Below, piece after piece: positions 2,213 to 48,057 of a stretch of DNA of 64,000 nucleotides. The stretch covers positions 1 through 64,000 of the IMG/VR virus record IMGVR_UViG_3300042868_013265, one strand, 5' to 3'. This DNA is from an uncultured virus (IMG/VR IMGVR_UViG_3300042868_013265) (taxonomy: Duplodnaviria; Heunggongvirae; Uroviricota; Caudoviricetes). Within the stretch, counting starts at the first letter, position 1. Every line of letters starts with the position of its first letter. Made by a program: the position numbers and the translations under genes. The notes beneath the pieces are model-generated. The model ran no database searches, was not told the DNA's origin, and saw nothing but the letters and a program-made list of their open reading frames with translations.

Positions 2213-2218
2213 ATTTAA

Positions 2219-11247: not shown

Positions 11248-11248
11248 T

Positions 11249-11826: not shown

Positions 11827-11860
11827 ATAAAAACCAAAAAATATTTTAGAAAATATAATT

Positions 11861-12196
11861 ATGAGCGAAGAAAAAAAAGCCCCCGCACCAATTCAAATTT
11901 CTCACACCTACACTCTTGCTGATTATAACGTAGTTAAAAAGGCAAAACTGATACTGAAAGACGGCCATATGGTCAAGTGTCATAAATGTGGCCCTCAGTT
12001 GGTGCCAAATAATCAATTGGGAACGTTGGCACCCCTGTATGAGCATTGTTCAACACATTGTTCGCGAGCATTGATTGGTGTTGAAAACGATAAGGTAGTT
12101 TATATCCAAACTTGTGAAGTTCAGAATCAGAAATTCATCATTGATAATGCGAATGCTTCAACTGAGAAACAAAGCAATTTGATTGTAAATCGATGA
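11861..12196 (+). CDS. Cys/His-rich hypothetical protein
   Basis: CHKC and HCSTHC motifs; A-rich leader. Confidence 0.6.
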   Translation: MSEEKKAPAPIQISHTYTLADYNVVKKAKLILKDGHMVKCHKCGPQLVPNNQLGTLAPLYEHCSTHCSRALIGVENDKVVYIQTCEVQNQKFIIDNANASTEKQSNLIVNR

Positions 12197-31312: not shown

Positions 31313-31672
31313 ATGGAAAATTCAACAGCAACACCTGCAGCAGCAGCACCCGCAACACCCGCAGCACCTGCGGCACCCGCAGCACCCGCGGCACCATCAG
31401 CACCCGCTATGGCACACGGTGGTAGCGTTGCAGACGCAGCACCACAAATGATAGAGGGTGGTGATGTATCATCAATAGAAAATAATTGGGGCACTTGGAT
31501 AGCCATCGGTTTAGTCTCTCTTACGCTTGTTGCATTAATTTTACAGATTGCTGTACATCGCAAAAATTTGAAAAAAGTCGATGCAGACGATGAAGCATTG
31601 CTTAAAGATGTCAGAGAACTGAAAATGAATGTGAAGAAACAAATGGGCGAAAAGTATGAAACCTTGGCTTGA
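31313..31672 (+). CDS. Ala/Pro-rich membrane protein
   Basis: (PAA)n, MAHGG, one TM helix, coiled-coil tail. Confidence 0.7.
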   Translation: MENSTATPAAAAPATPAAPAAPAAPAAPSAPAMAHGGSVADAAPQMIEGGDVSSIENNWGTWIAIGLVSLTLVALILQIAVHRKNLKKVDADDEALLKDVRELKMNVKKQMGEKYETLA

Positions 31673-32303
31673 CGAAGTTACATATGGCAACCCAAATGAT
31701 GAACTACTTCCTTATTTAGAAAAAGGGGAATTCGATTTCGTTTACGAATCCCTAAAAAAATATCCCTTTCCCAAAAACACTTCGGAGACGACGAGGGATG
31801 AAATGAGAGAACTGATTTCAATTCAGAACGCTCCCGAACAAAAAAACGAAGAAATTATGTCGAGGTATCTAAACTACGACGAACACTTCGGAGATGTGAT
31901 AAAAACCTATTGTAAGGAAAAAATAGGTGTAGATATGGATGAGGTTATTGACTCAATAACAAAAGATGGGTACTATGTTCTTGTTAAATTAAAATTTTTC
32001 TATCAGCGACCACGCCCCTATCAGTTGGCACAATATTTAAGGGCGCGGCTTTTTCCATATAAGGCCCCTTCTGCACTGACTCCCGCATATCCTTCGGGAC
32101 ATTCATTTGAGTCATATGCGTTAGCGGAATTTATTGGAAGTAAATATCCTGAACACTATCAGTTTTTAACTGATTTAGCACACGACATATCAATTAGTCG
32201 ATTATTTCTTGGATTGCATTTTGCCTCGGATTTGGATTTTGGCAGATTTGCGGCTAAAAAATATGTCGGCTCAAAACAATTTGCAAGTAAATATGGAATA
32301 TGA
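31656..32303 (+). CDS. PAP2/haloperoxidase-superfamily phosphatase
   Basis: KxxxxRPRP, PSGH and SRxxxGLHFxSD motifs. Confidence 0.85.
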   Translation: MKPWLDEVTYGNPNDELLPYLEKGEFDFVYESLKKYPFPKNTSETTRDEMRELISIQNAPEQKNEEIMSRYLNYDEHFGDVIKTYCKEKIGVDMDEVIDSITKDGYYVLVKLKFFYQRPRPYQLAQYLRARLFPYKAPSALTPAYPSGHSFESYALAEFIGSKYPEHYQFLTDLAHDISISRLFLGLHFASDLDFGRFAAKKYVGSKQFASKYGI

Positions 32304-32706
32304 ATTTCTTGTAACTCCTATTGGAAAGCCACGAATGACGCAAAGGGATAAATGGTTGAATCCTCCGCGTAAACCTGTCTTGAATTATAGACTTGCAAAA
32401 AATGGTTTGCAATTTTATGCTTGTGAACAAAAATTTACTTTGCCCGAAATTATTAATGTTATTTTTGTTTTACCTGTTTCACTAACTTGGAGCAAAAAGA
32501 AAAAAACATCAATGATTGGGCACCCACATCGTCAAAAACCTGATTTAGACAACATCCTCAAATTTTTGATGGATGGTTTGATGCCCAACGGTGGTGATGA
32601 AGTTGTACATACCATAAACGCCCGTAAAATTTGGGGTGAAGAAGGTAAAATATTAATTGAAACAAACAATGACCCGACAACGCAAAATCGAAACGAAACC
32701 AATTGA
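32293..32706 (+). CDS. rusA: RusA-like Holliday junction resolvase
   Basis: GKPRMTQRDKW...KPDLDNILKFLMDGL; start moved to ATG 32293. Confidence 0.8.
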   Translation: MEYEFLVTPIGKPRMTQRDKWLNPPRKPVLNYRLAKNGLQFYACEQKFTLPEIINVIFVLPVSLTWSKKKKTSMIGHPHRQKPDLDNILKFLMDGLMPNGGDEVVHTINARKIWGEEGKILIETNNDPTTQNRNETN

Positions 32707-34089: not shown

Positions 34090-34911
34090 ATGAGAGAACC
34101 ATTATTGGGCGTAGCCGTCGGAAAGAAAGGGGTAGGGAAAACCTTTACAACCAATAGGGTGATTAAACAATATGTGATGGGTAATCCCGCTTCGGGAATT
34201 ATGCCAAGAAAAGTTTTGATTTTAGATGCAAACGATGAATATACTGAGTATAAGGCAATTGCATTAAAGGATTTGATGTTGTTTAGTGTACACCCTTTGG
34301 TTGAAGCAAGAAGAATTAGACCGATTCACCCCGACGGTAAAAAAATGACCTTGGATGATTTGGCTGCTACGTTGAATTATATTTTGGAGGTATTTTCAGG
34401 GGGCCTATTATTGATTGAAGACATTAATCGATTTACTTCTGATTTTATGCCACAAGATTTAATGGGAGCGATTGCGACGAATCGACATCGTGACTTGGAC
34501 ATCATTTTACACTATCAAGGTATAGGTCGTATTGGAACGAAGGTATGGCAAAATATCAATTGGCTAAGGATGCATAAAATTACGGAGTCCGCAATCAGGC
34601 ACGCCAAAAAGTTTGAAGATAAATATGAGATAATCCGTATATGCGAATTGATGGTAAACATTCAGTATTTTTTGGGTAACGAAAGGACTTTTCAGTACAT
34701 CGATTGTGAGAATATGTGTTTTCAAGGTAAGGTGGATGAAAAACTATTTGCAGATGCTTGTAAGCAATATTTGGAGGAAAATTATCGTAGAATTATTTCA
34801 CCACTTTTACAGATTCGTGGTGTGGGTGATAAAAAGAAATTTACTGCAGATACCGCAATGAAGTCTGAGATGGAAAGATTGCGTAAAATGTATTTAAAAA
34901 GGCAAGTGTAA
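34090..34911 (+). CDS. A32/P9-like FtsK-HerA-superfamily genome-packaging ATPase
   Basis: Walker A GKKGVGKT near the N-terminus, Walker B LLLIED, then RH (arginine finger) and IILHYQ (sensor Gln); 273 aa with no nuclease domain. Confidence 0.75.
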   Translation: MREPLLGVAVGKKGVGKTFTTNRVIKQYVMGNPASGIMPRKVLILDANDEYTEYKAIALKDLMLFSVHPLVEARRIRPIHPDGKKMTLDDLAATLNYILEVFSGGLLLIEDINRFTSDFMPQDLMGAIATNRHRDLDIILHYQGIGRIGTKVWQNINWLRMHKITESAIRHAKKFEDKYEIIRICELMVNIQYFLGNERTFQYIDCENMCFQGKVDEKLFADACKQYLEENYRRIISPLLQIRGVGDKKKFTADTAMKSEMERLRKMYLKRQV

Positions 34912-35249: not shown

Positions 35250-35951
35250 ATGAATAATGTCCGTAAATACCTTGCTGACGCACAAAATCGTGCTCACGAG
35301 GGCTTCTTGAATGCCGATGGCTTCTTTGATGACGATTTGAACTTCACCGCAGGTGATGATTTTATGAATGCAAATGGCAACGACGCTATGCCTGCTGCCG
35401 CTCCAACCTCACAACCTTACATCATTCAAATTTCTAACACAGGTTCTGCTGTTGCGAATTTCAGTGTATTGGGTTCTTACGAGCAGTTGGGTGATACTGC
35501 AGCATTTACTTCGGGTAACTTTATATCAGGAGACGTGACTATTTCGTCTGCTATTCCAAACGTAACCTATCAGCAAATGTTGTATCAGTTTATGAACAAC
35601 CCTTTCAGCACAGGTTTGACTTACATTCAGTCTTCTTCAAACACACAGTTGTTGGAAACAATCAGTGTGCAAACTAAAGACGCGAATGGTAACGTGGCCC
35701 AAAAGCCTTTGGTGCCTACTATTGACCCATATCAGTTTCAGACTACCGTCCTTGCTCTCCGTTTCGGATACAGAATTGACGGTTACACTAAATTGATTTT
35801 GAATTCAATTTTGGCTTCAACCACCGTGAAGTTGTATCTGTACCCTGCAGACAACATCAACTTGGCTCGTGGATTGTCAGGACGCGCTGTATCAAAAGAT
35901 TTCAGCAGCCCAGGCATTGTACGTGCTCAAACCGTGAAAATCCAAGGTTAA
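35250..35951 (+). CDS. Putative major capsid protein (jelly-roll candidate)
   Basis: Beta-rich soluble protein near the packaging ATPase, long A-rich leader, many C-ending codons (ttc, aac, tac, atc), own terminator; fold not verified. Confidence 0.55.
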   Translation: MNNVRKYLADAQNRAHEGFLNADGFFDDDLNFTAGDDFMNANGNDAMPAAAPTSQPYIIQISNTGSAVANFSVLGSYEQLGDTAAFTSGNFISGDVTISSAIPNVTYQQMLYQFMNNPFSTGLTYIQSSSNTQLLETISVQTKDANGNVAQKPLVPTIDPYQFQTTVLALRFGYRIDGYTKLILNSILASTTVKLYLYPADNINLARGLSGRAVSKDFSSPGIVRAQTVKIQG

Positions 35952-35972
35952 TCCCTTTTTTACGATTTATAG

Positions 35973-36010
35973 AAAAGGGGCGATGGCACACAGCCTCGCC
36001 CCTTTTTTTT
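35973..36010 (+). terminator. Rho-independent terminator
   Basis: AAAAGGGGCGA...TCGCCCCTTTTTTTT. Confidence 0.85.
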
Positions 36011-36033
36011 TAATAGGCTAAAATCAAATAATT

Positions 36034-36204
36034 ATGGCATATAAAGTCAAATTGGGTAACAAGGATTACTTCTCAGAAGAATTTTCTTCAGAGACGGAAG
36101 CAAAAAAAGCAAAGTATTTCGCCATTGTAGGTGCAAAAACTTTTCGCAGTGCATCGAAATCGATGGACACAAAAATTGTAAAAGTTGTAAAAAAGAAAAA
36201 ATAA
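36034..36204 (+). CDS. Small basic protein (56 aa, not in ORF track)
   Basis: MAYKVKLGNKDYFSEEF...KVVKKKK; TAATG coupling. Confidence 0.55.
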   Translation: MAYKVKLGNKDYFSEEFSSETEAKKAKYFAIVGAKTFRSASKSMDTKIVKVVKKKK

Positions 36205-36587
36205 TGACAATCTACGAGTATATCGCAAGAAACAATCCGATGGGTGCTAAAAGAGTAATTGAATCTTTTGGCTATGTGGTAACACAACCTAAAAAAATGG
36301 GCGATAACCTTCGTATGTTGGTTGCGCAAGAAGGAGAGCCCGCTTTAAAAGCAGTCGTTGATTTACATCCTGATAAAGACTTAATTTTAGAAGTTTTCGG
36401 GAATAGTCAAAGTGTTAAAGCAACGGGTGAAAATTTCTTTGGAGCCGATGGTCTACTTCAAAGCGCAGTTTTAAATAACAACCAACAGCAAAATGACAGC
36501 AACAATAAAATGGTGCTTCAAACAAACACATTAATTGTGGCCTTATCACTCCTTGTAGTTGCAGGGTTAATATTAAAGAATCGATGA
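36204..36587 (+). CDS. Putative virion membrane protein
   Basis: LHPDKD and FFGADG motifs; C-terminal TM helix. Confidence 0.7.
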   Translation: MTIYEYIARNNPMGAKRVIESFGYVVTQPKKMGDNLRMLVAQEGEPALKAVVDLHPDKDLILEVFGNSQSVKATGENFFGADGLLQSAVLNNNQQQNDSNNKMVLQTNTLIVALSLLVVAGLILKNR

Positions 36588-37186
36588 AAAATTTGAAACC
36601 TAACGAAATTTACGCTGTATCAGCGATGACAATTGACAACAATACTGAAGGGGTAAAAACCCTGATTACAAAGTATGGTGTCATTTTGCCAAACAATGCA
36701 AGTCGAAGTGATATTGACAAAGCATTTGCAGCCCTTTTAAGAAAGAGTAAATCTTTCCGCAACGATTTTGCTGTATTGGCGGCAAATGAAAGTCAGAAGA
36801 GCGAAAACTTCTCAAATTTTATGGAATTTTTAGGTATGTCAGGAAGAGGTATTGGAACAGCAAGTGCTCCTTTAAAAACTCCCGACCCAATTCCTGTAAA
36901 AACAAGTTTACCGAACACAACTGCAAAAAAACCAAGTGCATTTGCGGAAGCATTTGATGCTGACACAATTAGAAACGTCATCAATACGGGATTAAATATT
37001 TGGGCTACCCGCTCAGGTACTACAGCCTCAACTACAAATGATTTACAATCAGGTAGGGAATCTTTGAATTTACAACCCCAAAGTCAACAAACACGTGGTA
37101 TTGGAACGACGGGAATCGTTTTGATTTCAATTGGTGCACTTGCAGCGGTAGGTGTTTTGATTTATTACCTATCTAAAAACAAATGA
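36584..37186 (+). CDS. Putative virion membrane protein
   Basis: C-terminal TM helix plus Lys tail. Confidence 0.7.
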   Translation: MKNLKPNEIYAVSAMTIDNNTEGVKTLITKYGVILPNNASRSDIDKAFAALLRKSKSFRNDFAVLAANESQKSENFSNFMEFLGMSGRGIGTASAPLKTPDPIPVKTSLPNTTAKKPSAFAEAFDADTIRNVINTGLNIWATRSGTTASTTNDLQSGRESLNLQPQSQQTRGIGTTGIVLISIGALAAVGVLIYYLSKNK

Positions 37187-37187
37187 T

Positions 37188-37361
37188 ATGGAAAATAAAG
37201 ATTATACCAAAGTCGTTGGATACTCTCAAATAGGTGGTGCCATAGGTATCATTTATGCATTTTCAACAAAATCAGGATTCTTCAAAGGGGTCGGCTATTA
37301 TTTAGTTGGGTCTTTTGTTGCAGGACTGATTGCATCAGGTGTGACCGCAGTAAAGAAATAA
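37188..37361 (+). CDS. Small two-TM protein (57 aa, not in ORF track)
   Basis: MENKDYTKVVGYSQIGGAIGIIYAF... Confidence 0.6.
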   Translation: MENKDYTKVVGYSQIGGAIGIIYAFSTKSGFFKGVGYYLVGSFVAGLIASGVTAVKK

Positions 37362-37585
37362 TGGCAAACGAATTTCAAGACGCTTTAGACAATGTTAAAG
37401 AACTGAGTGGACAATCTACTCACGATACCTTTTTGAAGCAAAGCAAGCGCATTATGAAGGGCAGTGCTACAGGTCTTGTTGTTGGTTTGATGTATGGATG
37501 GTACACGAAAAAAAATATTTATGTAACTGCAATACTTGGAGTAATTGCAGGAGGCGCGGTTAATTACTTTATTTTCTCAGAATAA
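37361..37585 (+). CDS. Small two-TM protein
   Basis: Gly-rich helical hairpin, similar in layout to the preceding ORF. Confidence 0.65.
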   Translation: MANEFQDALDNVKELSGQSTHDTFLKQSKRIMKGSATGLVVGLMYGWYTKKNIYVTAILGVIAGGAVNYFIFSE

Positions 37586-37589
37586 AATT

Positions 37590-37997
37590 ATGACTTTAGA
37601 TTCAGCGATAAAATATAAAGATTTTTCGAACCCAAATATAGTTCGTGCAAGGCCAATTAATATACAAATGGCCAATGATGACTATTTTTCTGTAGCGGGT
37701 CCTGCGGGCGCAACACAATTAAAACTCACCAAGGTTTTGACTGTAAAAAATGCTCAGGGTAAAAATACGAATTATGAGGTGGGTTCAGTTGTTTGGGCGT
37801 TCCCTATTCAAACCATCGCCAAATCAAATAGTTATGTTTTTACAACGGAAGGTCAAGGGTATATTTTGACTGTAGGTGTTAACGCTGAAATTTATAATCA
37901 AAAAGAGTCTAAAGAGACAAAAAAAGGTTTTCCTTTTTCTTTAGTCGGATTAGCCTTAATCGGAATAGTAATAATTTATACAATGAAAAAATTATGA
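37590..37997 (+). CDS. Putative virion membrane protein
   Basis: ATG 37590 preferred over the TTG start; C-terminal TM helix. Confidence 0.65.
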   Translation: MTLDSAIKYKDFSNPNIVRARPINIQMANDDYFSVAGPAGATQLKLTKVLTVKNAQGKNTNYEVGSVVWAFPIQTIAKSNSYVFTTEGQGYILTVGVNAEIYNQKESKETKKGFPFSLVGLALIGIVIIYTMKKL

Positions 37998-38095
37998 AAA
38001 CAGCGAATGATGAAAAGAAAAAAGGTGGTGCGTTGATGCTTGTAGGTTTTGCGATGCTCGCCTATGTTGTTTATAAAATAATCGAAAGTAAATGA
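37994..38095 (+). CDS. Membrane microprotein (33 aa, not in ORF track)
   Basis: MKTANDEKKKGGALMLVGFAMLAYVVYKIIESK; ATGA overlaps at both ends. Confidence 0.6.
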   Translation: MKTANDEKKKGGALMLVGFAMLAYVVYKIIESK

Positions 38096-38316
38096 AAAAA
38101 GAATATATTGAAGCCCTCGTTTTAATTGGAGCCATTGGATTGGCTATTTACTTAGCAAGTTCTAAGGACTCCGTATTGAAAAGTGCAAAATCAAATTCTC
38201 CAACACCGACAGGACCAAAAGGCGGTTTTGAGAATTTCACTGCAGACGAATTAACTTATGACGACCATTTGTATGGAAATGCAGATGGAGGATTAAAAGG
38301 TTTAACATTTAAATAA
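38092..38316 (+). CDS. Small membrane protein
   Basis: N-terminal TM helix; YGNADGG. Confidence 0.65.
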   Translation: MKKEYIEALVLIGAIGLAIYLASSKDSVLKSAKSNSPTPTGPKGGFENFTADELTYDDHLYGNADGGLKGLTFK

Positions 38317-38324
38317 ATAAAACT

Positions 38325-38414
38325 ATGACAAAAAACACAAAAACAATCTTGACTTTAGCCGCTGTTGCTGCGGTATTGTTCTTCGTTTTCAAGAAGCCAA
38401 AAACAGACGCTTAA
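38325..38414 (+). CDS. Membrane microprotein (29 aa, not in ORF track)
   Basis: MTKNTKTILTLAAVAAVLFFVFKKPKTDA. Confidence 0.55.
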   Translation: MTKNTKTILTLAAVAAVLFFVFKKPKTDA

Positions 38415-38425
38415 TTGTAATTGAA

Positions 38426-38920
38426 ATGAATCGTGACGTATTATTAGGCGCGGGGGTCGTTTTGGCCTTCATCGTCCTTGTTAATCGAGCCAAAAAAAAC
38501 CAAGTAACTGACACCCAAGGTGGCGGTGGTGGTGGTGGCGGTGGTTTTGGTGGTGGTCCCTTTGTAGGGGGCGTACCCGCAGGACCAATGACTGTCAATA
38601 CTATTGTTCAACCCGCAGCGCGTCCTGCAAATCAAGGACGCTCTTACAACGCTGCTGATGTGACTAAAAGTAAAGACACCACTCCAACTGCAGCAGTTAC
38701 AAGTTCCGCTCAAGCAAAAGCGATAGAAACAGCCACCAACACGGGTGGAATCGTTCCTATCGGTCAAGGGGGAAGCAGTACACCTACCTACAGCACAGGG
38801 ACAGTGACTCAAGCAGATTTAGCGAAAGGTGTTGCAGGTAACACTGTATTCAAACCTTTCAGCGGAGATGCTAAATTCTTGGGATTTGTAGGTTCAAGAC
38901 CTAAATTTGAATTTAATTAA
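38426..38920 (+). CDS. Gly-rich membrane-anchored protein
   Basis: N-terminal TM helix and poly-Gly tract. Confidence 0.65.
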   Translation: MNRDVLLGAGVVLAFIVLVNRAKKNQVTDTQGGGGGGGGGFGGGPFVGGVPAGPMTVNTIVQPAARPANQGRSYNAADVTKSKDTTPTAAVTSSAQAKAIETATNTGGIVPIGQGGSSTPTYSTGTVTQADLAKGVAGNTVFKPFSGDAKFLGFVGSRPKFEFN

Positions 38921-38921
38921 T

Positions 38922-39203
38922 ATGTTGTCAGCAAATAAACTATACAAGGAATCAGGTACCACTTTGTCTTTCAAAGAATGGTTGGAGCGTGAAAAGGCAA
39001 AAGGCAAATTCATTCCCAACGTGGAAGCGATGGAAGAGTTTGTGAATGCCGATGGTGGAACTTCAGAGCAAGCCTCTGAGCAACCCGAAATCACAGCGAA
39101 ATCAGTTGAGAATAAACAGATGTTTACCTCGATTGCTCGAGTAGGTTTAATTGTTGTATTGACATACTTCGTTTATCGAACTATCAAAAATGAAATTAAG
39201 TAA
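38922..39203 (+). CDS. Putative virion membrane protein
   Basis: ATG 38922; FKEWLEREK and FVNADGG; C-terminal TM helix. Confidence 0.65.
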   Translation: MLSANKLYKESGTTLSFKEWLEREKAKGKFIPNVEAMEEFVNADGGTSEQASEQPEITAKSVENKQMFTSIARVGLIVVLTYFVYRTIKNEIK

Positions 39204-39414
39204 TACTCAAATAAAGCGCATCATTATTGCAGGGGGATTTTTCTTCCTGCTTTTGCGCTTTAGAGGATACTTAAATCCCTCAAAAGAAACATTGTCGGCA
39301 AAAGACGATAGTGTTTCTGCAAATGGTACCAAATCGGTAATCGACAGAGCGATTCACAAAGTAAAAAGTGGCGCGGTAAAAGTTGCAAGCACACCATCTG
39401 AAATAAAAAACTGA
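39190..39414 (+). CDS. Small membrane protein
   Basis: N-terminal TM helix. Confidence 0.6.
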   Translation: MKLSNTQIKRIIIAGGFFFLLLRFRGYLNPSKETLSAKDDSVSANGTKSVIDRAIHKVKSGAVKVASTPSEIKN

Positions 39415-40196
39415 TGAAAGAACAAAGAATTGCAACAAAATATGCTCCACTTACGCTGTGTGTGGTTTTGAAAACTGAATTCCCTACCAAATTAAACTTG
39501 GTGGTGTTTGATGCAAAAAATCCGAAGAGGAAGTTTACTGAGCGTTACAAAACAGTAACAGGGGAAGAAACGCTGTTTGTTCGAATGCCGTTATCTCCTG
39601 ACACCGCTGTTGTTCAGGTGTTTGGAGGCGCGGGGATTACAAAAAAGAATGATTCCAATTTTACTATTGTAAGAGTTTACAAAAAAGGGTTGGAGCGTCG
39701 ATTTGATTTGAATGATATTGGGAACCCCCAAATACGTTCATTCGTCAAATTCGCGCAGAAATTTTGTTTTAATGTGAGTGAATTAGAGCCTGAAGAAACT
39801 TATCGAAGTGATGACGGAGAATATTTCATTCAGTTAAAGCAACAAATCAGAGATGCAAATGGAAAAGTGTTGGGTACTCCCGCACGTATTGGCCGTCAGA
39901 CGGGGGTTATTCAAGTGAGTAAAACACAATTTGAAGCCTTTACAATTCCTATGCGAATGGCAATATTGCTCCACGAATTTTCACATTTTTACTTAAATGA
40001 AAAAATGGATGATGAAATGGAGGCAGACTTAAATGGATTGTTGATTTATCTCGGACTTGGATATCCAAGGATTGAGGCTTATCAAGCGTTTCTTGAAACA
40101 TTCAAAAATGCACCAAGCAACTTGAATAAAAAACGCTATGATATGATTAATAACTTCATCAACAATTTTGAAAAAATGGACATTGTAATAAAATAG
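39414..40196 (+). CDS. Zincin-like metallopeptidase
   Basis: ILLHEFSH (HExxH) followed by EMEAD (third ligand), as in M48/M78-type enzymes. Confidence 0.75.
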   Translation: MKEQRIATKYAPLTLCVVLKTEFPTKLNLVVFDAKNPKRKFTERYKTVTGEETLFVRMPLSPDTAVVQVFGGAGITKKNDSNFTIVRVYKKGLERRFDLNDIGNPQIRSFVKFAQKFCFNVSELEPEETYRSDDGEYFIQLKQQIRDANGKVLGTPARIGRQTGVIQVSKTQFEAFTIPMRMAILLHEFSHFYLNEKMDDEMEADLNGLLIYLGLGYPRIEAYQAFLETFKNAPSNLNKKRYDMINNFINNFEKMDIVIK

Positions 40197-40198
40197 AG

Positions 40199-40621
40199 AT
40201 GGCAGTTACAACTTGGAATACAGCACCTAATTATGATGAATGGGGTCCTGATGACTCTTGGAGTTGCGAGGATTGGATACAATGGCACAAATTGCTAAAA
40301 TTAAAGTTTGGCAAGGAAAAGGCTAATTATGTTTGGAATTATGCTTACGCTCAAGGTACGCAAGGAGCATCCCATTGGAGTTGCAGGACAAGCAATACTG
40401 CGTTTCGTAATTATACATCCAAAGAAGGATTGAATCCGTATGAGAGTGCGGGGGCATTCGCTCCAATTTTGAATGTTATTGGAGGAGTGGGCGACGTTGT
40501 TAGTGGCACAGGAGATGTATTGTCCAATTTGGGAAAAAATTTGAAAATAATCACATATATAGCCGTTTTAGGTGTGGCTATTTATGTAGGTGTAACCGTT
40601 TATAAAAAGACGAAACAATGA
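40199..40621 (+). CDS. Putative virion membrane protein
   Basis: Trp-rich N-terminal domain; C-terminal TM helix. Confidence 0.7.
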   Translation: MAVTTWNTAPNYDEWGPDDSWSCEDWIQWHKLLKLKFGKEKANYVWNYAYAQGTQGASHWSCRTSNTAFRNYTSKEGLNPYESAGAFAPILNVIGGVGDVVSGTGDVLSNLGKNLKIITYIAVLGVAIYVGVTVYKKTKQ

Positions 40622-40776
40622 AAAAAGAATTTATCTATATCGGTGGTATATTGATTTCGTTAGGTGCAATTTATTATATTTTTAATCAATACAAAAAAAA
40701 TAAGGATGGTTCAGCCGCTTTAGAAGATAAAGAAATCATAGCGTTGTTTAAAAAAATTGATTCAGCAAAAAAATGA
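40618..40776 (+). CDS. Small membrane protein (52 aa, not in ORF track)
   Basis: MKKEFIYIGGILISLGAIYYIFNQYKK...; ATGA overlaps at both ends. Confidence 0.6.
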   Translation: MKKEFIYIGGILISLGAIYYIFNQYKKNKDGSAALEDKEIIALFKKIDSAKK

Positions 40777-41318
40777 GCGCAGAAAAAGGATTGAAATATG
40801 GGTTTTTTGCCTTGGCAGGGATTGCAGTAATTCTTGGTGTAGTATTATTGGGCAAAAAGAAACCCGATGACGACGGGGGCGGGGGAGATGAAGTTGAACC
40901 TGTAAAACCAAATCAGCCCGTAATTGACCCAAGGCAAGCGGCAGTACCGTTGGATTTAAAAGCAATTCTTGCAAGCAAAGACCCTATGTCACTATTGAAA
41001 GGTCGAAAACTTTATGCAAAAATTAACAAAGCAAAAGGTAGAAACGAAGCAAGAGTAAATGATGGTTGGGGATTAGGTAGTAATGTAATTTTCGAAAGTA
41101 CGCCCGAAGGGGAATTTCTTGGGTATGCACAATTTGTTTCAAATGATAGAAATTCCGCTAAAGATGCTAAGGGTAAAGTGTATAAATGGATTCGCATTAC
41201 TTTAGACGATAAGGCTTGGAATCGATACAATGACACCAAATCTTTCTTGACTCGACAGTTAGTAAAAAATAAAAATAATGATTGGGCTTACTTCAGAGAA
41301 GATGTAATTAGATTTTAA
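40773..41318 (+). CDS. Membrane-anchored protein, possible SH3-like C-terminal domain
   Basis: N-terminal TM helix; YKWIRI...WAYFREDVI. Confidence 0.6.
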   Translation: MSAEKGLKYGFFALAGIAVILGVVLLGKKKPDDDGGGGDEVEPVKPNQPVIDPRQAAVPLDLKAILASKDPMSLLKGRKLYAKINKAKGRNEARVNDGWGLGSNVIFESTPEGEFLGYAQFVSNDRNSAKDAKGKVYKWIRITLDDKAWNRYNDTKSFLTRQLVKNKNNDWAYFREDVIRF

Positions 41319-41319
41319 T

Positions 41320-41868
41320 ATGAAAAAAATAGTACTGAATAAAAATTTACAATATGGCCTTTACGTAGTAGCGGCTATAATTGGTGGTTTTGCAATAGTA
41401 AAAATTGTCAAAGCAATTAAAGACAATGCGGATAAAGGTGATGATGATGACAAAAAGCCTGAACCTGAAACCAAAACGGTTTATGTAGATGCATACTTGT
41501 CGAAGTTACCTTTAGGAGTAGATAATTTGACTTGGGGTTCACGAATCCCCGCGAAGTATTTACCGTCTTTTAATGCTATTTCAGCAGCCAATTCAGATGC
41601 TACATTTAAAGCGAATGCTATCAGAGTTCAAACTTTGTTGAATCAAAGACTTGCCGCGATTGGTGGTGCTTACCCAAAAATAACAGTTGATGGAAAAATT
41701 GGTGAAGAAACAACCAAAGCGATGTTGGCAGTTGCAAGCCAATATGGTAGATTGAACTTATTACCTTTAACGAAAAAAGAAGACCTGAACAATTGGTTGA
41801 CTTTTTTCAATGTAAAATCAACTTCGGATTCTTCTCCAAAGAATGAATTCCCATTTTTCAACAAATAA
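41320..41868 (+). CDS. Membrane-anchored protein with a peptidoglycan-binding-like domain
   Basis: N-terminal TM helix; VQTLLN...VDGKIGEETTKA. Confidence 0.65.
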   Translation: MKKIVLNKNLQYGLYVVAAIIGGFAIVKIVKAIKDNADKGDDDDKKPEPETKTVYVDAYLSKLPLGVDNLTWGSRIPAKYLPSFNAISAANSDATFKANAIRVQTLLNQRLAAIGGAYPKITVDGKIGEETTKAMLAVASQYGRLNLLPLTKKEDLNNWLTFFNVKSTSDSSPKNEFPFFNK

Positions 41869-41880
41869 TACGATAAGAAT

Positions 41881-42441
41881 ATGGACATAGATTCTTTTTT
41901 CACAGATGGCGACCTAAGTTTCGGAATGGACGGTGCAAGCCCTAAATTCAAAAACTTTGCAGGAACAGGTCAAAATGTTTCGAGGGGACCTAAATATGGT
42001 GAATTTCAATTCAATAAATACCCCGAGTATGGGTTTACTGATGATATTTATTCAAACGCTACGGGCGGTTCAAGGTTAAATCAGCCAACGGAATGGTATG
42101 TTTCAAAACTTTCCGAAGCCGATAAAAAAGACTGTAAAAAATTGCAGGGTATTATGGATAATATTTCCATAGATATTGATAAGAACAACAAAAAAATAAG
42201 CACTGCAAAAAGAGGTGAAAGAAGAGTTCTTGAAGAGTATAACAAGGGCTTGGAATTGGCAGGCAAAAGAGTATTGGAATTAATGAACGCTGCAAATTGC
42301 ACTCTCGTTCAGCAGGAAGAATTTAATAAAGCGTTAGGCGCGGCAGGTGCACCATCAAAATCATCGAAAGTTGTTTTGTATGTTGGCATTGGAGTTGCAG
42401 CCTTGGCTCTTGGAGTTGTACTTTACAAAAAATTTAAGTAA
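41881..42441 (+). CDS. Putative virion membrane protein
   Basis: YSNATGG, coiled coil, C-terminal TM helix. Confidence 0.7.
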   Translation: MDIDSFFTDGDLSFGMDGASPKFKNFAGTGQNVSRGPKYGEFQFNKYPEYGFTDDIYSNATGGSRLNQPTEWYVSKLSEADKKDCKKLQGIMDNISIDIDKNNKKISTAKRGERRVLEEYNKGLELAGKRVLELMNAANCTLVQQEEFNKALGAAGAPSKSSKVVLYVGIGVAALALGVVLYKKFK

Positions 42442-43208
42442 TGAGAACAAACATCAGTAAACAATTGGGATTACCCATCGCTCCCCCACAGCCTAAAGCA
42501 CCGTCTATAGAGGCTCAATTGGGTTTTGTAGCAGAATATGATAATTCTTTGAATAAAAGTAATTTTAATTTCGTAGCAGAATATGATAAGTCTTTAAACA
42601 CCAAAAATAATGGTGGCTATTTTGACGCTACAGGAGAAGAAAAGAACTTCAAAGAATATTACAAAGGAAATGTTGCAAACGTTCGCGCTTTGTTGGCACA
42701 GGAGAAAATTTCTACCTCAGAGGATTTAGATTTTCTTGAAGCCAAGAAAAAGTTTTATCAAGAAGGAAAGAAATCTTTGGAAAAAGATATCAATGGTATC
42801 AAAATAAATCAAGCACAAAAAGCATTTGGGACGCAAGCCTATACACAGCGCGGAAAATATGTTTCTCAATTATGGAGCGTAGATAAAACAATCGAATTGA
42901 TTGATGAAAGAATTGCGGATGTAAAAGTCATTTTGGAGAAAAGAGCGGCAAAGGCGAAGGCTGATGCAGATGCGGCAGCAGCAAAAATGAAAGCAGAAGC
43001 AGAAGCCGCCAAACAAGCAAAAATCAATGCATTAAAAAAACAAATTGCAGAATCTAATGACCCGAATGCCAAAAAACAACTGAAGGACCAATTGAATGAT
43101 TTATTGCAGGAAGGAACTGAAGGAGTGAAATCAAACAAATTTATTTTGATTGGTGGAGCGGTAGCCGTCATTGGAATTTTGTATTACTTTTTTAGAAACA
43201 AGGAATAA
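42441..43208 (+). CDS. Coiled-coil membrane-anchored protein
   Basis: FVAEYDxSLN twice, Ala/Lys helix, C-terminal TM helix. Confidence 0.7.
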   Translation: MRTNISKQLGLPIAPPQPKAPSIEAQLGFVAEYDNSLNKSNFNFVAEYDKSLNTKNNGGYFDATGEEKNFKEYYKGNVANVRALLAQEKISTSEDLDFLEAKKKFYQEGKKSLEKDINGIKINQAQKAFGTQAYTQRGKYVSQLWSVDKTIELIDERIADVKVILEKRAAKAKADADAAAAKMKAEAEAAKQAKINALKKQIAESNDPNAKKQLKDQLNDLLQEGTEGVKSNKFILIGGAVAVIGILYYFFRNKE

Positions 43209-45307: not shown

Positions 45308-46071
45308 CCAATATTTTAACCACGAGTTTAGGAAGAAACATTAATACCGTAGAGGGTAATGGTCTTGCTATATTCGTTGACGACACGGATTTCGTGTTGA
45401 AGTTAAAAGACGTTGATGGCAATATACAACCTGTAACAGACTTCACAGGTAGCGGTGGAACGAGCGGTGGTGGAATACAATCCATCAATGCCTTGACAGC
45501 ACCCGCGCAATTTTTGGTGACAGGTACTTCAGGAAATGATTTTGCGGTACAGTCTTCAGGCAATACACATACCTTTAATTTGCCAAATGCGAGTACAAGC
45601 GCACGAGGTGTAGTTAGCACGGGCCCACAAACAATCAAAGGGATAAAAACATTTACAGACAATGCATTTTTTCAAGGCGATGTTGATATTTTAGGTACGC
45701 TTACAGCGGAAGCAAAATCGTTCTTGATTCCACACCCCGACCCTGACAAACAAGGGTGGGATTTACAACACGGAAACTTGGAGGGTGGCGAACACGGTAT
45801 TTATCACCGTGGCCGTCTTCAGGGGACAAATATGATATATCTACCTTCATATTGGAAGTTTTTGGTGAGTCAGCATACCATTACGGTACACTTGACAAGT
45901 GCCAAAGGCAACTTCAATTATTTCGTAGAAGATGTGACTTTAGAAACTATTAGAATTGCAAAATCCGAGGGTGATTGGTACTCTTATGATTGCTATTTTA
46001 TAATTCACGCTGAAAGACGAGATATTGGCAAATTGAAGGTGGAAATTACACCTCAAGAAAAGCAATATTGA
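45304..46071 (+). CDS. Fibre/spike-associated protein
   Basis: N-terminus paralogous to 44423; C-terminal KSFLIPHP...LEGGE..IYHRG...LPSYW...HAERRD, a type of domain seen in phage fibres. Confidence 0.6.
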   Translation: MTNILTTSLGRNINTVEGNGLAIFVDDTDFVLKLKDVDGNIQPVTDFTGSGGTSGGGIQSINALTAPAQFLVTGTSGNDFAVQSSGNTHTFNLPNASTSARGVVSTGPQTIKGIKTFTDNAFFQGDVDILGTLTAEAKSFLIPHPDPDKQGWDLQHGNLEGGEHGIYHRGRLQGTNMIYLPSYWKFLVSQHTITVHLTSAKGNFNYFVEDVTLETIRIAKSEGDWYSYDCYFIIHAERRDIGKLKVEITPQEKQY

Positions 46072-48047
46072 TGAAAAAAATACTCCATTTAATTCCTCAC
46101 CTGAGCACGGGTGGGTGCCCCCAATTCGCTTACGATTTATTAAGAAAAACCAAAGATACCACAGATGCTTATGTGGTTGAATATGCATTTATTGCTTGGG
46201 ACTATGTTGTGCAAAGAAATCGAATTATCGATTTGATGCAAGACAGATTTTTTTCTTTAGGAGAGCAGAAGGAGCAACTCTTTGACATTATTGATACGAT
46301 TAAGCCCGATGTCATTCATATTCAAGAATTCCCTGAATATTTTATGGACGATGAAATCGCGCGTAAATTGTACAATAAGAATCGAGAATATGTAATTGTA
46401 GAAACGAGTCACGACAGTGGATTTAATCCCGCGAATAAGCGGTTTTTCTCAGACCATTTAGCATTGATAAGCCAATGGCAAATTGATAAATTCAAGGATT
46501 ATGAAATACCGATTACTCTGTTAGAAAGTGACATTGAATACAAAACCAAAATTCCCAATCAGAGGGAACAAGGGTTATTAAAACTTGGATTGGACCCCAA
46601 TAAAAAACACGTTTTGAACGTGGGTCTTTGGACAAGTAGAAAAAACCAAGCGGAAGCCTTACAGTATGCGAAAGAACTTGAATGGTGTTCTGATATCCAA
46701 TTTCATTTTATTGGGAATCAGGCTCCTAATTTTGAGAATTATTGGGCTCCGTTGATGCACGACTTACCATCAAATGTGCAAGTTTGGGGTGAGAGGAGCG
46801 ATGTGCATTCATTTTATGAGTGTATGGACCTGTTCCTCTTCACATCGCGAGGCACAAATGGCGATATGGAAACAAGTCCGTTGGTTCTCAGAGAGGCAAC
46901 AGGACATCAAATGCCGATACTGATGTACAACCTCCCTGTGTATCTGAATTACTATGATAGGTTTTCGAACGTTAATTACCTCAGCGATTTCACAACCAAC
47001 AAAAATTTAATTTTGTCACTATTGAAAATTGAAGAAGAATCTTCAAGCGAATTATTCAAATTTGATTACGCAATTGCTGATAATAAAATTTTCATCAACT
47101 ATCAAAAAGACAGCAAAATCGAGGTTTGGTTTTCAATATGCGATACTGATACCAAACACGCAATTTATGCTTTCAAAGGGCAATTTGAATACAAATCTTC
47201 GATGTGGGTAATCCCTATCCCAAAAGATACTTTTGACACTATATACAACTCCAAAGGCAATTTCAGAGGTTTTGAAATATCTGTTTGGGACAGTTTGCAA
47301 GAGAACAAATTAGACAGCGAAATTATTTGGTTCAATCAGACTTTACCCATCCCAAATTTTAGAGTATTTGAAACAAATCCTTGGAATTTTACTTGGTCTA
47401 ATTACAATGAAATGTTCATTGATAAATATTATGAAAAAACCAACATTGTAGTTGGTAAGGTTTGCTTAGATATTGGGGCAAATGATGGTTTATTTACTGA
47501 ATGGTTAATTAGTCAAGGTGTTGAGAAAATTTATGCGATTGAATGCGACCCAAGGTGTATAAAATTTTTAAATAAAAAATTCAACTCAAATAAAAATGTG
47601 ACTGTAATAAACAAGGCTCTATGGAAAGAAAATCAAAGTGAAATGAAACTTTATTATGTTGATGACACCTCGGTTTTTAGTAGTTTGAAAGAAGAAGGTA
47701 ATTGTAAGGGTAAGAATTATTATGATGTTTGTTCTTGGGATTTTGAAACATTAATTAGTAAACACAACATCAATCAAATAGACTTATTTAAAATAGATAT
47801 CGAGGGTGCGGAATATGAAGTATTTGAATCGATGACTGATGAGCAAATTAGTAAAATAAATTCGTTTTTGATTGAAATCCATTTAAATACAAATGGTCAA
47901 GTTTATAAAATAACTGATAGATTCAAAATGTTAGGTTATGAAATACAGTTCAGAGAGCATAAAAATAACAGTTTGATAAATAATGAATTGGAATGGAAAA
48001 ATTATGAATGGGCTTATTTAACAGCAACCAAAAAAGTAAATTATTAA
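46068..48047 (+). CDS. GT4 glycosyltransferase fused to an FkbM methyltransferase
   Basis: HLSTGG, RKNQ, ETSPLVLREA; LDIGANDG, KIDIEGAE. Confidence 0.85.
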   Translation: MMKKILHLIPHLSTGGCPQFAYDLLRKTKDTTDAYVVEYAFIAWDYVVQRNRIIDLMQDRFFSLGEQKEQLFDIIDTIKPDVIHIQEFPEYFMDDEIARKLYNKNREYVIVETSHDSGFNPANKRFFSDHLALISQWQIDKFKDYEIPITLLESDIEYKTKIPNQREQGLLKLGLDPNKKHVLNVGLWTSRKNQAEALQYAKELEWCSDIQFHFIGNQAPNFENYWAPLMHDLPSNVQVWGERSDVHSFYECMDLFLFTSRGTNGDMETSPLVLREATGHQMPILMYNLPVYLNYYDRFSNVNYLSDFTTNKNLILSLLKIEEESSSELFKFDYAIADNKIFINYQKDSKIEVWFSICDTDTKHAIYAFKGQFEYKSSMWVIPIPKDTFDTIYNSKGNFRGFEISVWDSLQENKLDSEIIWFNQTLPIPNFRVFETNPWNFTWSNYNEMFIDKYYEKTNIVVGKVCLDIGANDGLFTEWLISQGVEKIYAIECDPRCIKFLNKKFNSNKNVTVINKALWKENQSEMKLYYVDDTSVFSSLKEEGNCKGKNYYDVCSWDFETLISKHNINQIDLFKIDIEGAEYEVFESMTDEQISKINSFLIEIHLNTNGQVYKITDRFKMLGYEIQFREHKNNSLINNELEWKNYEWAYLTATKKVNY

Positions 48048-48057
48048 AATTAAATAT

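What the first reader, a model, noticed from the sequence alone, without database searches (positions are those of the whole stretch)
35250..43208. Second shared motif ([FY]-x-N-A-D-G-like) in structural proteins next to an HExxH peptidase
Seen: FLNADG (35304) and FMNANG (35361) in the capsid-candidate leader, FFGADG (ORF 36204), YGNADGG (38092), FVNADGG (38922), YSNATGG (41881), YFDATG (42441), and looser FLGMSG, YFSVAG and FKNFAG, all in otherwise unrelated proteins. A zincin-like gene (39414..40196) sits in the same operon. Inference: a maturation cleavage site or capsid-docking peptide. Metalloprotease-driven maturation would differ from the cysteine proteases of eukaryotic varidnaviruses.
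Basis: partly seen in the sequence, partly recalled or inferred. Interest (0 to 1): 0.75.

Follow-up and report, generated by a model that had tools for sequence, protein, structure and literature searches.

The report
Shared peptide tag on virion proteins
An uncultured, apparently tailless 84-kb bacterial virus carries the same six-residue tag on its coat-protein candidate and on several unrelated membrane proteins, next to a zinc protease gene, which looks like an address or cutting code for building the particle, though no cutting has been shown.

Summary
The pattern [FY]-x-[NGD]-A-[DNT]-G occurs 7 times in all six frames of the window, always in + strand ORFs between 35304 and 42618. Residue shuffles of these 19 genes give 0.07 hits on average. 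Relatives keep the five defined residues while the x position and the flanks drift, and synonymous codons vary freely, so selection acts on the peptide.

The tag sits in flexible segments: the disordered leader of a jelly-roll coat candidate, and mostly the N-terminal parts of C-terminally anchored membrane proteins.

ORF 39414-40196 is a beta-sandwich fused to a zincin domain with invariant HExxH...E-x-x-A-D. Its nearest solved fold is M48 (BepA, Z 8.6). It lies 3-8 kb downstream of a leader-bearing coat gene in 64 of 65 related viral loci. Co-folding of peptidase and leader gave only weak support (0.60, best control 0.02).

Best reading (0.45): a recognition and cleavage motif for this peptidase. 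Main rival (0.3): a docking tag that is not cut. Cleavage is unproven.

This scan noted the same motif earlier on other DNA (e1-6082821).

The parts
34090..34911 (+). P-loop ATPase (packaging-ATPase candidate), context for the virion module
   Evidence: Weak, sub-threshold Pfam AAA_22 (E 0.0015) and DUF87/HerA (E 0.0038). No PDB sequence match. 52-94% identical in related loci.
35250..35951 (+). Jelly-roll coat-protein candidate (233 aa): helix 3-17, disordered leader to about residue 50, beta-sandwich 53-217
   Evidence: AF2 mean pLDDT 87.0, with pLDDT <50 at residues 19-27 and 30-37. VIA best Z 6.7, with viral jelly rolls among the rows. 579 family representatives.
35304..35321 (+). Motif copy 1, FLNADG, in the coat-candidate leader
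   Evidence: Five fixed positions 0.97 conserved in 8 sequences, x position 0.29.
35361..35378 (+). Motif copy 2, FMNANG, in the coat-candidate leader
   Evidence: fixed positions 0.71 conserved.
36204..36587 (+). 127-aa C-terminally anchored protein; motif FFGADG at 36435-36452, between a conserved N-domain and the TM helix
   Evidence: Motif 0.80 against flanks 0.50.
36809..36826 (+). Degenerate site FSNFME in the 200-aa tail-anchored protein 36584-37186, orthologous to FSNANG/YANASS in relatives
Evidence: Alignment.
37545..37997 (+). 150-aa tail-anchored protein with a second shared motif (DFSNPNIVRARP, like the coat candidate's C-terminus), followed by a degenerate copy of the tag (orthologue in L004 has FIGADG)
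38092..38316 (+). 74-aa N-terminally anchored protein; motif YGNADG at 38272-38289, 8 residues from the C-terminus
   Evidence: Motif lost in the L006 and L008 orthologues.
38907..39203 (+). 98-aa tail-anchored protein; motif FVNADG at 39039-39056
   Evidence: Motif 0.77 against flanks 0.46, x position 0.14.
39414..40196 (+). Zinc metallopeptidase candidate (260 aa): beta-sandwich 1-93 plus zincin domain 105-254. HEFSH at 39972-39986; E201 at 40014-40016.
   Evidence: AF2 pLDDT 89.9. VIA: BepA 6sar_A Z 8.6, rmsd 3.6, 118 aligned. H187, E188, H191, E201, A204 and D205 invariant in 52 sequences. 1710 homologues.
41881..42441 (+). 186-aa tail-anchored protein; motif YSNATG at 42049-42066
   Evidence: Motif 0.67 against flanks 0.37.
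42441..43208 (+). 255-aa tail-anchored coiled-coil protein; motif YFDATG at 42618-42635
   Evidence: Only 4 sequences aligned; motif 0.47 against flanks 0.31.

Best explanation
The motif aromatic-x-(N/G)-A-(D/N/T)-G is a short linear recognition motif. It sits on flexible, cytoplasm-facing (hence capsid-facing) segments of proteins destined for the particle: the N-terminal leader of the jelly-roll coat candidate (two copies) and the N-terminal parts of tail-anchored membrane proteins. The most likely reader is the module's own soluble zinc peptidase (39414-40196). It would bind these segments during assembly and cut at or next to the motif. That would remove or chop the roughly 50-residue acidic leader of the coat protein and trim or release the N-terminal domains of the membrane proteins. 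This resembles the prohead-protease and propeptide systems of T4 and the phiKZ-like phages, but with a zincin enzyme in a tailless-type, membrane-rich virion module. Shown: the motif, its selection at the peptide level, its topology, the peptidase fold and catalytic residues, and the co-occurrence. Inferred: that the peptidase reads the motif, that it cuts there, and that the jelly-roll protein is the major coat protein.
For: (1) Enrichment: 7 hits against 0.07 expected in the module, 1 in the rest of the genome. In 37 non-redundant related loci there are 58, 15, 2 and 9 hits in the four 2-kb bins after the coat-gene start. That compares with 4 hits in 57,421 aa upstream, 3 in 58,497 aa further downstream and 0 in 10,525 aa on the minus strand. 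(2) Selection on the peptide: fixed positions are 0.67-0.97 conserved against flanks of 0.37-0.80 and an x position of 0.14-0.33 in 4 of 7 sites, and synonymous codons are mixed. (3) The motif recurs in 46 non-coat instances across several unrelated small-protein families. (4) Location: the leader is disordered in the model. In the membrane proteins the motif lies between conserved domains and variable linkers. 33 of 283 C-terminally anchored proteins carry it, against 4 of 147 N-terminally anchored ones (Fisher p 0.001; not phylogenetically independent). (5) Peptidase: confident model, HExxH plus E-x-x-A-D invariant in 52 sequences down to 34% identity, and a catalytic domain nearest to the M48 enzymes BepA, 3c37 and Ste24/ZMPSTE24 (Z 8.6-6.2). 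(6) Co-occurrence: 64 of 65 viral loci with the peptidase have a leader-bearing coat gene 3-8 kb upstream; the exception lacks upstream DNA. The same holds in 8 of 8 genome-collection loci with enough upstream sequence. (7) Family members that lack the leader start 3-10 residues before the conserved xQPY strand, so the leader is an add-on that the fold does not need. (8) Co-fold of peptidase + Zn + leader 1-60: verdict 'weak support'. Score 0.60 (runs 0.63, 0.58, 0.60), best of 3 controls 0.02. The mark was reached by 116 of 157 solved complexes and 2 of 215 mismatches, but at 0.60 or under by only 18 of those 157 and by both mismatches that passed. The runs share at least 41% of contacts and the partner's pLDDT is at least 45. 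My own alignments and a riding Zn were used, so these counts hold only roughly, and no interface was reported. (9) Multiple motif copies inside a propeptide are also seen in SPN3US, where long propeptides are cut several times (passages of PMC10052503).
Against: No cleavage product, mature N-terminus or activity is known. The co-fold pass is weak and does not say whether the motif lies in the active-site cleft. Co-occurrence of peptidase, leader and motif may simply reflect shared ancestry. My attempted phyletic test failed: the 'leaderless' relatives L014-L017 are paralogues, and at least two of them (L016, L017) sit in genomes that also carry the peptidase. The exact motif is not universal. 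Distant clades show FIGVDG, FFGADA or HYNGDG. In ORF 38092 the motif lies 8 residues from the C-terminus, so cutting there would remove almost nothing, and its orthologues in L006 and L008 have lost it. Cutting in ORFs 36204 and 38907 would detach well-conserved N-terminal domains from their anchors, which is unusual for simple trimming. Tandem aromatic-acidic repeats in some leaders also fit multivalent binding. Pfam places the peptidase in no family: M48 matches 4 of 52 members, all below the cut-off.
Confidence: 0.45

Rival explanations
1. Docking or address tag without cleavage. The motif, probably a tight turn presenting the aromatic residue, plugs into a pocket on the coat lattice or another assembly hub (possibly the peptidase's beta-sandwich domain). 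This gathers tail-anchored proteins and coat subunits on the same membrane patch and ties membrane to shell.
For: The motif sits on segments that would face the shell. Some leaders carry tandem aromatic-acidic copies, which suggests avidity. A second short motif at the coat candidate's C-terminus is also copied in a tail-anchored protein, directly followed by the tag, as if membrane proteins mimic the coat termini. The ORF 38092 copy near the C-terminus makes more sense as a plug than as a cut site.
Against: No binding pocket or partner is identified. The monomer model leaves the leader undocked. The only partner tested in silico, the peptidase, passed weakly. A conserved, apparently active protease in every module needs substrates, and the tagged proteins are the obvious candidates.
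Confidence: 0.3
2. A local structural or metal/lipid-binding element that each protein needs on its own (for example a Ca2+- or head-group-binding turn), with no common reader.
For: N-x-D-G-type turns with acidic neighbours recall calcium-binding loops (recalled). The motif is often followed by acidic residues: D is the commonest residue at positions +8 (27 of 81 contexts), +9 (15) and +10 (21) of the logo.
Against: The first position is aromatic rather than the Asp required in EF-hand or DxDxDG loops (recalled definition). The flanks differ widely between carriers. The motif lies in segments modelled as disordered. Restriction to one gene module points to a shared process.
Confidence: 0.1
3. 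Chance or compositional artefact, or a DNA-level signal that happens to be translated.
For: The regex was defined after the fact. An unbiased word count inside this one genome did not single the motif out.
Against: None of 2000 shuffles reaches 7 hits. The motif is conserved in orthologues while the flanks drift. The same concentration appears in 37 other loci. Synonymous codons are mixed at every fixed position.
Confidence: 0.02

Closest known systems
Prohead protease with consensus cut sites and propeptides in large tailed phages (T4 gp21 with capsid-targeting sequences; phiKZ/SPN3US gp245)
   Same: A protease is encoded among the particle genes. A short shared motif occurs on many otherwise unrelated particle proteins and on the coat protein's N-terminal extension. 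Several motif copies lie inside one propeptide. In SPN3US there are 14 sites in 9 substrates, long propeptides are cut several times, and T4 propeptides serve targeting (passages of PMC10052503 read).
   Different: Those enzymes are serine proteases of the assemblin-like kind (recalled) in tailed phages, and their substrates are soluble internal head proteins. Here the enzyme is a zincin, the virus has no detectable tailed-phage genes in the window, most carriers are tail-anchored membrane proteins, the motif lies 20-110 residues in rather than at a fixed N-terminal position, and cleavage is unproven.
Adenovirus protease AVP, ASFV pS273R and poxvirus I7 with small-residue consensus sites (all recalled, not tested here)
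   Same: The virions have jelly-roll coats, in some cases with an internal membrane, and several structural proteins share a short cut-site consensus with a hydrophobic residue a few positions before small residues or Gly.
   Different: Those are cysteine proteases of eukaryotic viruses, with no sequence or fold relation to the zincin found here.
M48/M56 gluzincins (BepA, HtpX, Ste24/ZMPSTE24, BlaR1) and the soluble 'minigluzincins'
   Same: HExxH followed by a Glu in an E-x-x-A-D helix (the signature itself is recalled). The best structural matches for residues 105-254 are BepA Z 8.6 (rmsd 3.6, 118 aligned), 3c37 Z 6.8, ZMPSTE24 Z 6.4 and Ste24p Z 6.2. Many cellular members act on membrane or envelope proteins (recalled).
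   Different: There are no TM helices, and an N-terminal beta-sandwich takes the place of TPR or membrane domains. No Pfam family reaches its cut-off: weak hits to SprT-like in 11, PhageMetallopep in 8, M56 in 8 and M48 in 4 of 52 members. A PDB profile search by sequence found nothing.
Encapsulin cargo-loading peptides (recalled)
   Same: A short conserved peptide on unrelated proteins docks them to the inside of a protein shell; this models the docking rival.
   Different: Those peptides are terminal, bind an HK97-fold shell and are not linked to a protease or to membrane proteins.

Membership tests
Zincin metallopeptidase (clan MA), M48-like gluzincin | HExxH zinc-binding and catalytic motif | tested here: met
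   HEFSH at residues 187-191. H187, E188 and H191 are invariant in 38 and in 52 aligned homologues.
Zincin metallopeptidase (clan MA), M48-like gluzincin | Third zinc ligand Glu on a downstream helix (the E-x-x-A-D signature of M48/M56, recalled) | tested here: met
   E201, A204 and D205 are invariant in 52 sequences and lie in helix 201-214 of the model. The ligand role itself is inferred.
Zincin metallopeptidase (clan MA), M48-like gluzincin | Catalytic-domain fold like solved M48 enzymes | tested here: inconclusive
   BepA 6sar_A is the top row at Z 8.6 (rmsd 3.6, 118 aligned, model 125-254), with 3c37, 6bh8 and 4il3 at Z 6.2-6.8. The tool notes that a best Z of 7-8 is common for models without clear relatives. 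Foldseek found nothing at E <= 0.001.
Zincin metallopeptidase (clan MA), M48-like gluzincin | Match to the Pfam Peptidase_M48 profile above the gathering score | tested here: not met
   The window's protein has only M56 at E 0.3 (10.7 bits against a cut-off of 31). M48 matches 4 of 52 members, best E 0.001.
Zincin metallopeptidase (clan MA), M48-like gluzincin | Proteolytic activity | not testable with these tools
   Needs an enzyme assay.
Virion maturation protease with consensus-site substrates (T4/phiKZ type) | Protease gene inside the particle-gene block, conserved across relatives | tested here: met
   Same strand and gene string. 3-8 kb downstream of the coat candidate in 64 of 65 loci.
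Virion maturation protease with consensus-site substrates (T4/phiKZ type) | Shared short motif on several unrelated particle proteins | tested here: met
Virion maturation protease with consensus-site substrates (T4/phiKZ type) | Cleavage at the motif (mature N-termini, loss of propeptides) | not testable with these tools
   No isolate or proteome is available. The co-fold gave weak support for binding only.
Virion maturation protease with consensus-site substrates (T4/phiKZ type) | Assemblin-like serine protease fold (family definition recalled) | tested here: not met
   The model is a beta-sandwich plus a zincin domain with HExxH.
Tailless, internal-membrane (PRD1/STIV-like) virion module | FtsK/HerA-type packaging ATPase | tested here: inconclusive
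   Only sub-threshold AAA_22 and DUF87 hits and no PDB sequence match.
Tailless, internal-membrane (PRD1/STIV-like) virion module | Jelly-roll major capsid protein | tested here: inconclusive
   Confident single beta-sandwich model. Viral jelly rolls appear among the rows at Z 5.2-6.6, but so do unrelated sandwiches.

The most novel reading that the evidence does not exclude
A large, widespread group of uncultured 70-100 kb tailless-type bacterial viruses uses a virus-encoded peptide code. One six-residue tag marks the coat protein's leader and the cytoplasmic parts of tail-anchored membrane proteins for recruitment to the assembly site. A dedicated M48-like zinc protease then erases it. This would be the first metalloprotease-driven particle maturation, and the first sorting signal for virion membrane proteins, described in a prokaryotic membrane-containing virus.
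Probability: 0.35. Interest if true: 0.8.

Novelty: new variant of a known kind. Interest (0 to 1): 0.62.

Why it matters
How membrane-containing tailless phages choose which membrane proteins enter the particle is an open question. So is whether their shells mature by proteolysis. No such sorting signal or metalloprotease turned up in my searches (listings and abstracts only). Here a defined six-residue motif, a defined set of candidate substrates and a defined enzyme make the question directly testable by co-expression, without culturing the virus. The family is large: 1710 peptidase homologues and 579 coat-family cluster representatives. Any rule found would therefore apply to many environmental viruses. 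Notes from this scan report analogous tag-plus-protease arrangements in other large tailless-type viruses (unchecked leads), so the principle may be general.

Tried and rejected
1. Phyletic test (leaderless coat genes should lack the peptidase). L014-L017 looked like leaderless relatives without a peptidase or any HExxH ORF. However, L016 and L017 lie on the same contigs as the peptidase loci L034 and L035, so these are paralogues elsewhere in peptidase-bearing genomes. The test is void.
2. Loci for other leader types. P0182 gave one locus (L084), with a basic-leader homologue beside very large genes and no peptidase within 10 kb downstream; this is a different context and uninformative. P0231 gave nothing. 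The alignment A2 was too divergent to use as a scan query.
3. An unbiased reduced-alphabet word count within the module was dominated by TM-helix words.
4. Sequence-level identification of the peptidase failed: no Pfam or PHROGs family at default thresholds, no PDB hit by profile, no Foldseek PDB match at E <= 0.001.
5. No match to the peptidase or the coat candidate in 50,697 GenBank phage records. Cluster look-up gave only 'hypothetical protein'.
6. The coat candidate against BFVD and PDB gave only generic sandwich matches with low TM-scores.
7. ESM Atlas gave its own unnamed viral clusters, with DUF4344 metallopeptidase (0.87) and a viral cluster in which 25% of members carry M48 (0.80) as sub-0.9 leads only.
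8. PDB sequence searches of the ATPase and of the 1094-aa and 550-aa proteins found nothing.
9. Considered and rejected from recalled definitions: sortase or PEP-CTERM-like signals (the motif is not adjacent to the TM helix), N-glycosylation sequon (NAD does not fit N-x-S/T), and EF-hand loop (first position aromatic).

Full report
SETTING. The window is bases 1-64000 of an 84,420-bp IMG/VR virus record classed as having inverted terminal repeats and rated 100% complete by CheckV. I find a perfect 127-nt terminal inverted repeat. From about 8.6 kb onward nearly all genes are on the + strand. The stretch 33-46 kb holds:
- a P-loop ATPase with weak AAA_22/HerA-like hits;
- a 233-aa protein with no family;
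- about twenty small ORFs, most with one predicted TM helix;
- a 260-aa HExxH protein;
- collagen-like proteins.
No portal, terminase, HK97-type coat or tail-tube family was hit in the 29 + 34 + 22 proteins scanned. The only 'tail' hits are collagen repeats. This fits a tailless, membrane-rich particle module but does not prove one. Two earlier notes of this scan reached the same reading on related genomes (e1-6112765, e1-6091932).

THE OBSERVATION. A six-frame scan of the window with [FY].[NGD]A[DNT]G returns exactly these seven, all in real + strand ORFs between 35304 and 42618. In the whole genome there is one more, at 81316, in a 170-aa protein with an N-terminal TM helix. With a simple gene call (110 genes), the 19 + strand genes starting between 35000 and 43300 (2,661 aa) hold 7 hits. 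In 2000 within-protein shuffles the mean is 0.07 and the maximum 2. The other 91 genes (24,389 aa) hold 1 hit against 0.26 expected. Because the pattern was framed after looking, I put more weight on the independent tests below. An unbiased reduced-alphabet word count within this genome alone did not rank the motif above TM-helix words. The carriers are otherwise unrelated: all-vs-all blastp gives only short local matches.

CONSERVATION. The coat candidate retrieved 17 viral loci, and orthologues of most module genes are present at 30-96% identity. In alignments of non-redundant orthologues the five defined motif positions are better kept than their surroundings:
- coat copy 1: 0.97 against flanks 0.80;
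- ORF 36204: 0.80 against 0.50;
- ORF 38907: 0.77 against 0.46;
- ORF 41881: 0.67 against 0.37.
The x position is 0.14-0.33 at these sites. Coat copy 2, ORF 42441 (only 4 sequences) and ORF 38092 are not clearly better than background, and ORF 38092's motif is lost in two orthologues. Codons at the fixed positions are mixed (GCC/GCT/GCA, GGC/GGT/GGA/GGG, TTC/TTT, GAT/GAC) among the 8 copies in this genome and among 35 orthologous coat sites. Selection is therefore on the peptide, not on a DNA word. In ORF 36584 the orthologous column is FSNFME, where relatives have FSNANG or YANASS. In ORF 37545 it is QMANDD, where L004 has FIGADG. FLGMSG and YFSVAG lie 5-6 residues away from these columns.

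A WIDER SAMPLE. The peptidase alignment retrieved 66 viral loci. In 65 of them analysed together, 64 have a coat-profile hit 3-8 kb upstream of the peptidase. The exception (L072) has under 3 kb of upstream DNA.
- 0-2 kb: 58 hits in 25,613 aa;
- 2-4 kb: 15 hits in 23,000 aa;
- 4-6 kb: 2 hits in 22,566 aa;
- 6-8 kb: 9 hits in 24,097 aa.
This compares with 4 hits in 57,421 aa upstream, 3 in 58,497 aa beyond 8 kb and 0 in 10,525 aa on the minus strand. Shuffle expectations are at most 0.8 per bin. Of 91 instances, 85 lie in the module, giving 81 distinct contexts. The logo is F59/Y22 - x - N57/G22/D2 - A81 - D57/N13/T11 - G81, with E43/D17 two residues before the aromatic. The A and G columns are fixed by the regex. 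Forty-six instances are in proteins other than the coat candidate, from several small-protein families.

The exact motif fades with distance. Clades with about 44% peptidase identity show FIGVDG and FFGADA, and have 0-3 widened-regex hits per locus. Loci at 34% identity show HYNGDG, FYNGNG or FLNFGG. Among the 150 best of 579 coat-family representatives, 99 have a recognisable leader of 25 aa or more. Eleven have almost no leader and start a few residues before the conserved xQPY strand, and others have basic or hydrophobic N-termini instead.

WHERE THE MOTIF SITS. The coat candidate's model (mean pLDDT 87.0, pTM 0.76) has a helix at residues 3-17, a low-confidence stretch (pLDDT below 50 at residues 19-27 and 30-37) that holds both motif copies, and a single beta-sandwich from about residue 53 to 217. 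Structural matches are only middling. The best is Z 6.7. Viral jelly rolls lie at Z 5.2-6.6 (grapevine fanleaf virus, a 124-residue PR772 capsid chain, PBCV-1, FLiP, faustovirus, phiCjT23, PM2), among unrelated sandwiches. 'Coat protein' therefore rests mainly on context, and a vertex protein is not excluded.

In the window, ten ORFs between 36204 and 43507 have a single C-terminal TM helix, and four of them carry the strict motif. Of six with an N-terminal helix, one does. Across the 37 loci the figures are 33 of 283 C-terminally anchored, 4 of 147 N-terminally anchored, 7 of 199 without a helix, and 0 of 20 others. Fisher p is 0.001 for the first two classes, but these proteins are related, so the counts are not independent. 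By the established topology of tail-anchored proteins, the N-terminal parts stay in the cytoplasm. That is the side where coat protein and a soluble peptidase would meet them, and it would face the shell if the membrane is wrapped as in PRD1 (inference from recalled knowledge). Within these proteins the motif lies at the border between a conserved domain and a variable linker.

THE PEPTIDASE. ORF 39414-40196 has 1710 homologues at E <= 0.001 among 2318 candidates, none with a Pfam domain on record. The model is confident (pLDDT 89.9, pTM 0.88), with a beta-sandwich at 1-93 and an alpha/beta domain at 105-254. H187, E188, H191, E201, A204 and D205 are invariant in 52 sequences down to 34% identity. 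This is HExxH followed by E-x-x-A-D, which I recall as the M48/M56 gluzincin signature. A fold search independent of Foldseek puts E. coli BepA on top (Z 8.6, rmsd 3.6, 118 aligned, model residues 125-254). It also lists 3c37 (Z 6.8), ZMPSTE24 (Z 6.4) and Ste24p (Z 6.2). The sandwich matches GOLD domains and carbohydrate-binding modules at Z 6-8.4. The tool warns that Z 7-8 is a common best score, so I treat M48 as the nearest fold, not as membership. Pfam agrees only faintly: SprT-like in 11, PhageMetallopep in 8, M56 in 8 and M48 in 4 of 52 members, all below the cut-offs. Profile search of PDB sequences and Foldseek found nothing significant. The protein has no predicted TM helix.

LINK BETWEEN MOTIF AND PEPTIDASE. 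Co-occurrence is complete wherever it can be seen: 64 of 65 viral loci, and 8 of 8 genome-collection loci with enough upstream DNA. This may only reflect common descent. A phyletic contrast failed. The leaderless relatives L014-L017 lack a nearby peptidase, but at least two of them lie on contigs that carry the peptidase about 20 kb away (L016 with L034, L017 with L035), so they are paralogues.

The verdict was 'weak support':
- score 0.60 (runs 0.63, 0.58, 0.60), best of 3 controls 0.02;
- the mark was reached by 116 of 157 solved complexes and 2 of 215 mismatched pairs;
- at 0.60 or under, it was reached by only 18 of those 157 and by both mismatches that passed;
- the runs share at least 41% of contacts and the partner's pLDDT is at least 45;
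- my own alignments and the riding zinc make these counts rough;
- no interface was given.
This nudges the odds towards the peptidase as a reader of the leader. It does not show that the motif lies in the active site.

MECHANISM. The most likely reading (0.45) is that the tag marks flexible, cytoplasm-facing segments of particle proteins for the module's zincin. The enzyme would cut at or beside it, removing or chopping the acidic coat leader. That leader is absent from some natural family members, so the fold does not need it. The enzyme would also trim the membrane proteins. The nearest precedent is the prohead protease with consensus sites and multiply cut propeptides in SPN3US, phiKZ and T4. 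There, propeptides also serve targeting (passages of PMC10052503; T4 details recalled).

The main rival (0.3) is a docking tag that is never cut. It is favoured by the near-C-terminal copy in ORF 38092 and by tandem aromatic-acidic copies in some leaders. It is also favoured by a second shared motif: the coat candidate's C-terminal DFSSPGIVRAQ recurs as DFSNPNIVRAR in ORF 37545, directly before a tag copy in relatives. That pattern looks like membrane proteins imitating coat termini. The two readings can combine, as address first and trimming later, as in T4. A self-contained structural or metal-binding turn (0.1) and chance (0.02) are less likely.

NOVELTY AND LIMITS. Neither protein matches any of 50,697 GenBank phage records. 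Five literature searches found no description of a metalloprotease-linked maturation or sorting motif in membrane-containing phages (listings and abstracts only, except passages of one paper). Relatives are binned in metagenome-assembled genomes of mixed labels, five of twelve Bacteroidota, which hints at the host but no more. This scan had already noted the same motif on another genome (e1-6082821) and analogous tag-plus-protease sets in other large tailless-type viruses. Those notes are unchecked leads, not evidence. In kind, this is a new variant of the 'maturation protease plus shared site' theme: a different enzyme class, a different virion type and membrane-anchored carriers.

Noticed in passing
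window 35895-35951 and 37617-37670: A second shared short motif: the coat candidate's C-terminus (DFSSPGIVRAQTVKIQG) recurs near the N-terminus of the tail-anchored ORF 37545 (DFSNPNIVRARPINIQ), 65% identical over 17 residues. It is conserved at the coat C-terminus in all 13 related loci printed, and in L022's ORF 37545 orthologue, where it is directly followed by FIGADG.
   Followed up: partly
window 35331-35378, 38233-38289, 42019-42066: The tag is often preceded 5-10 residues upstream by an F-T-(A)-x-D/E element (NFTAGDDF-MNANG, NFTADELTYDDHLY-GNADG, YGFTDDIY-SNATG). ORFs 38092 and 41881 match at 43% over 28 residues across it. The recognised unit may be bipartite.
   Followed up: no
window 51961-64000 and beyond (next called gene starts at genome position 67977): One ORF of more than 4,000 codons runs off the window. 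Its G+C is 52-55% against about 35% elsewhere, and the opposite strand is also open for more than 3,000 codons, which suggests a long biased repeat protein.
   Followed up: no
whole genome (G000): Linear 84,420-bp record with a perfect 127-nt terminal inverted repeat. No DNA polymerase family was recognised among the proteins scanned. The 1094-aa, 969-aa, 764-aa and 550-aa proteins have no informative hits.
   Followed up: partly
window 139-5805 (- strand), 10612-13419, 46068-51968: Unusually many glycosyltransferase and FkbM-type methyltransferase genes, some fused (659, 587 and 716 aa), flank the particle module.
   Followed up: no
window 27676-28791: A protein combining DUF2958 with a RelA/SpoT-type nucleotide pyrophosphokinase domain. 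A PAP2 phosphatase (31656-32303) and a RusA resolvase (32209-32706) lie nearby.
   Followed up: no
genome 80866-81378 (outside the window): A 170-aa protein with an N-terminal TM helix carries YIGSDG and YFNANG close to its C-terminus, far from the particle module.
   Followed up: no
L051:5667-7093, L083:1760-5678, L079:4009-7441; L016/L034 and L017/L035: Some relatives have two or three coat-family paralogues side by side. Others have a leaderless paralogue about 20 kb from the peptidase. This genome has only one copy.
   Followed up: partly
window 38426-38920: A small N-terminally anchored protein has a run of nine glycines followed by FGGGPFVGG.
   Followed up: no
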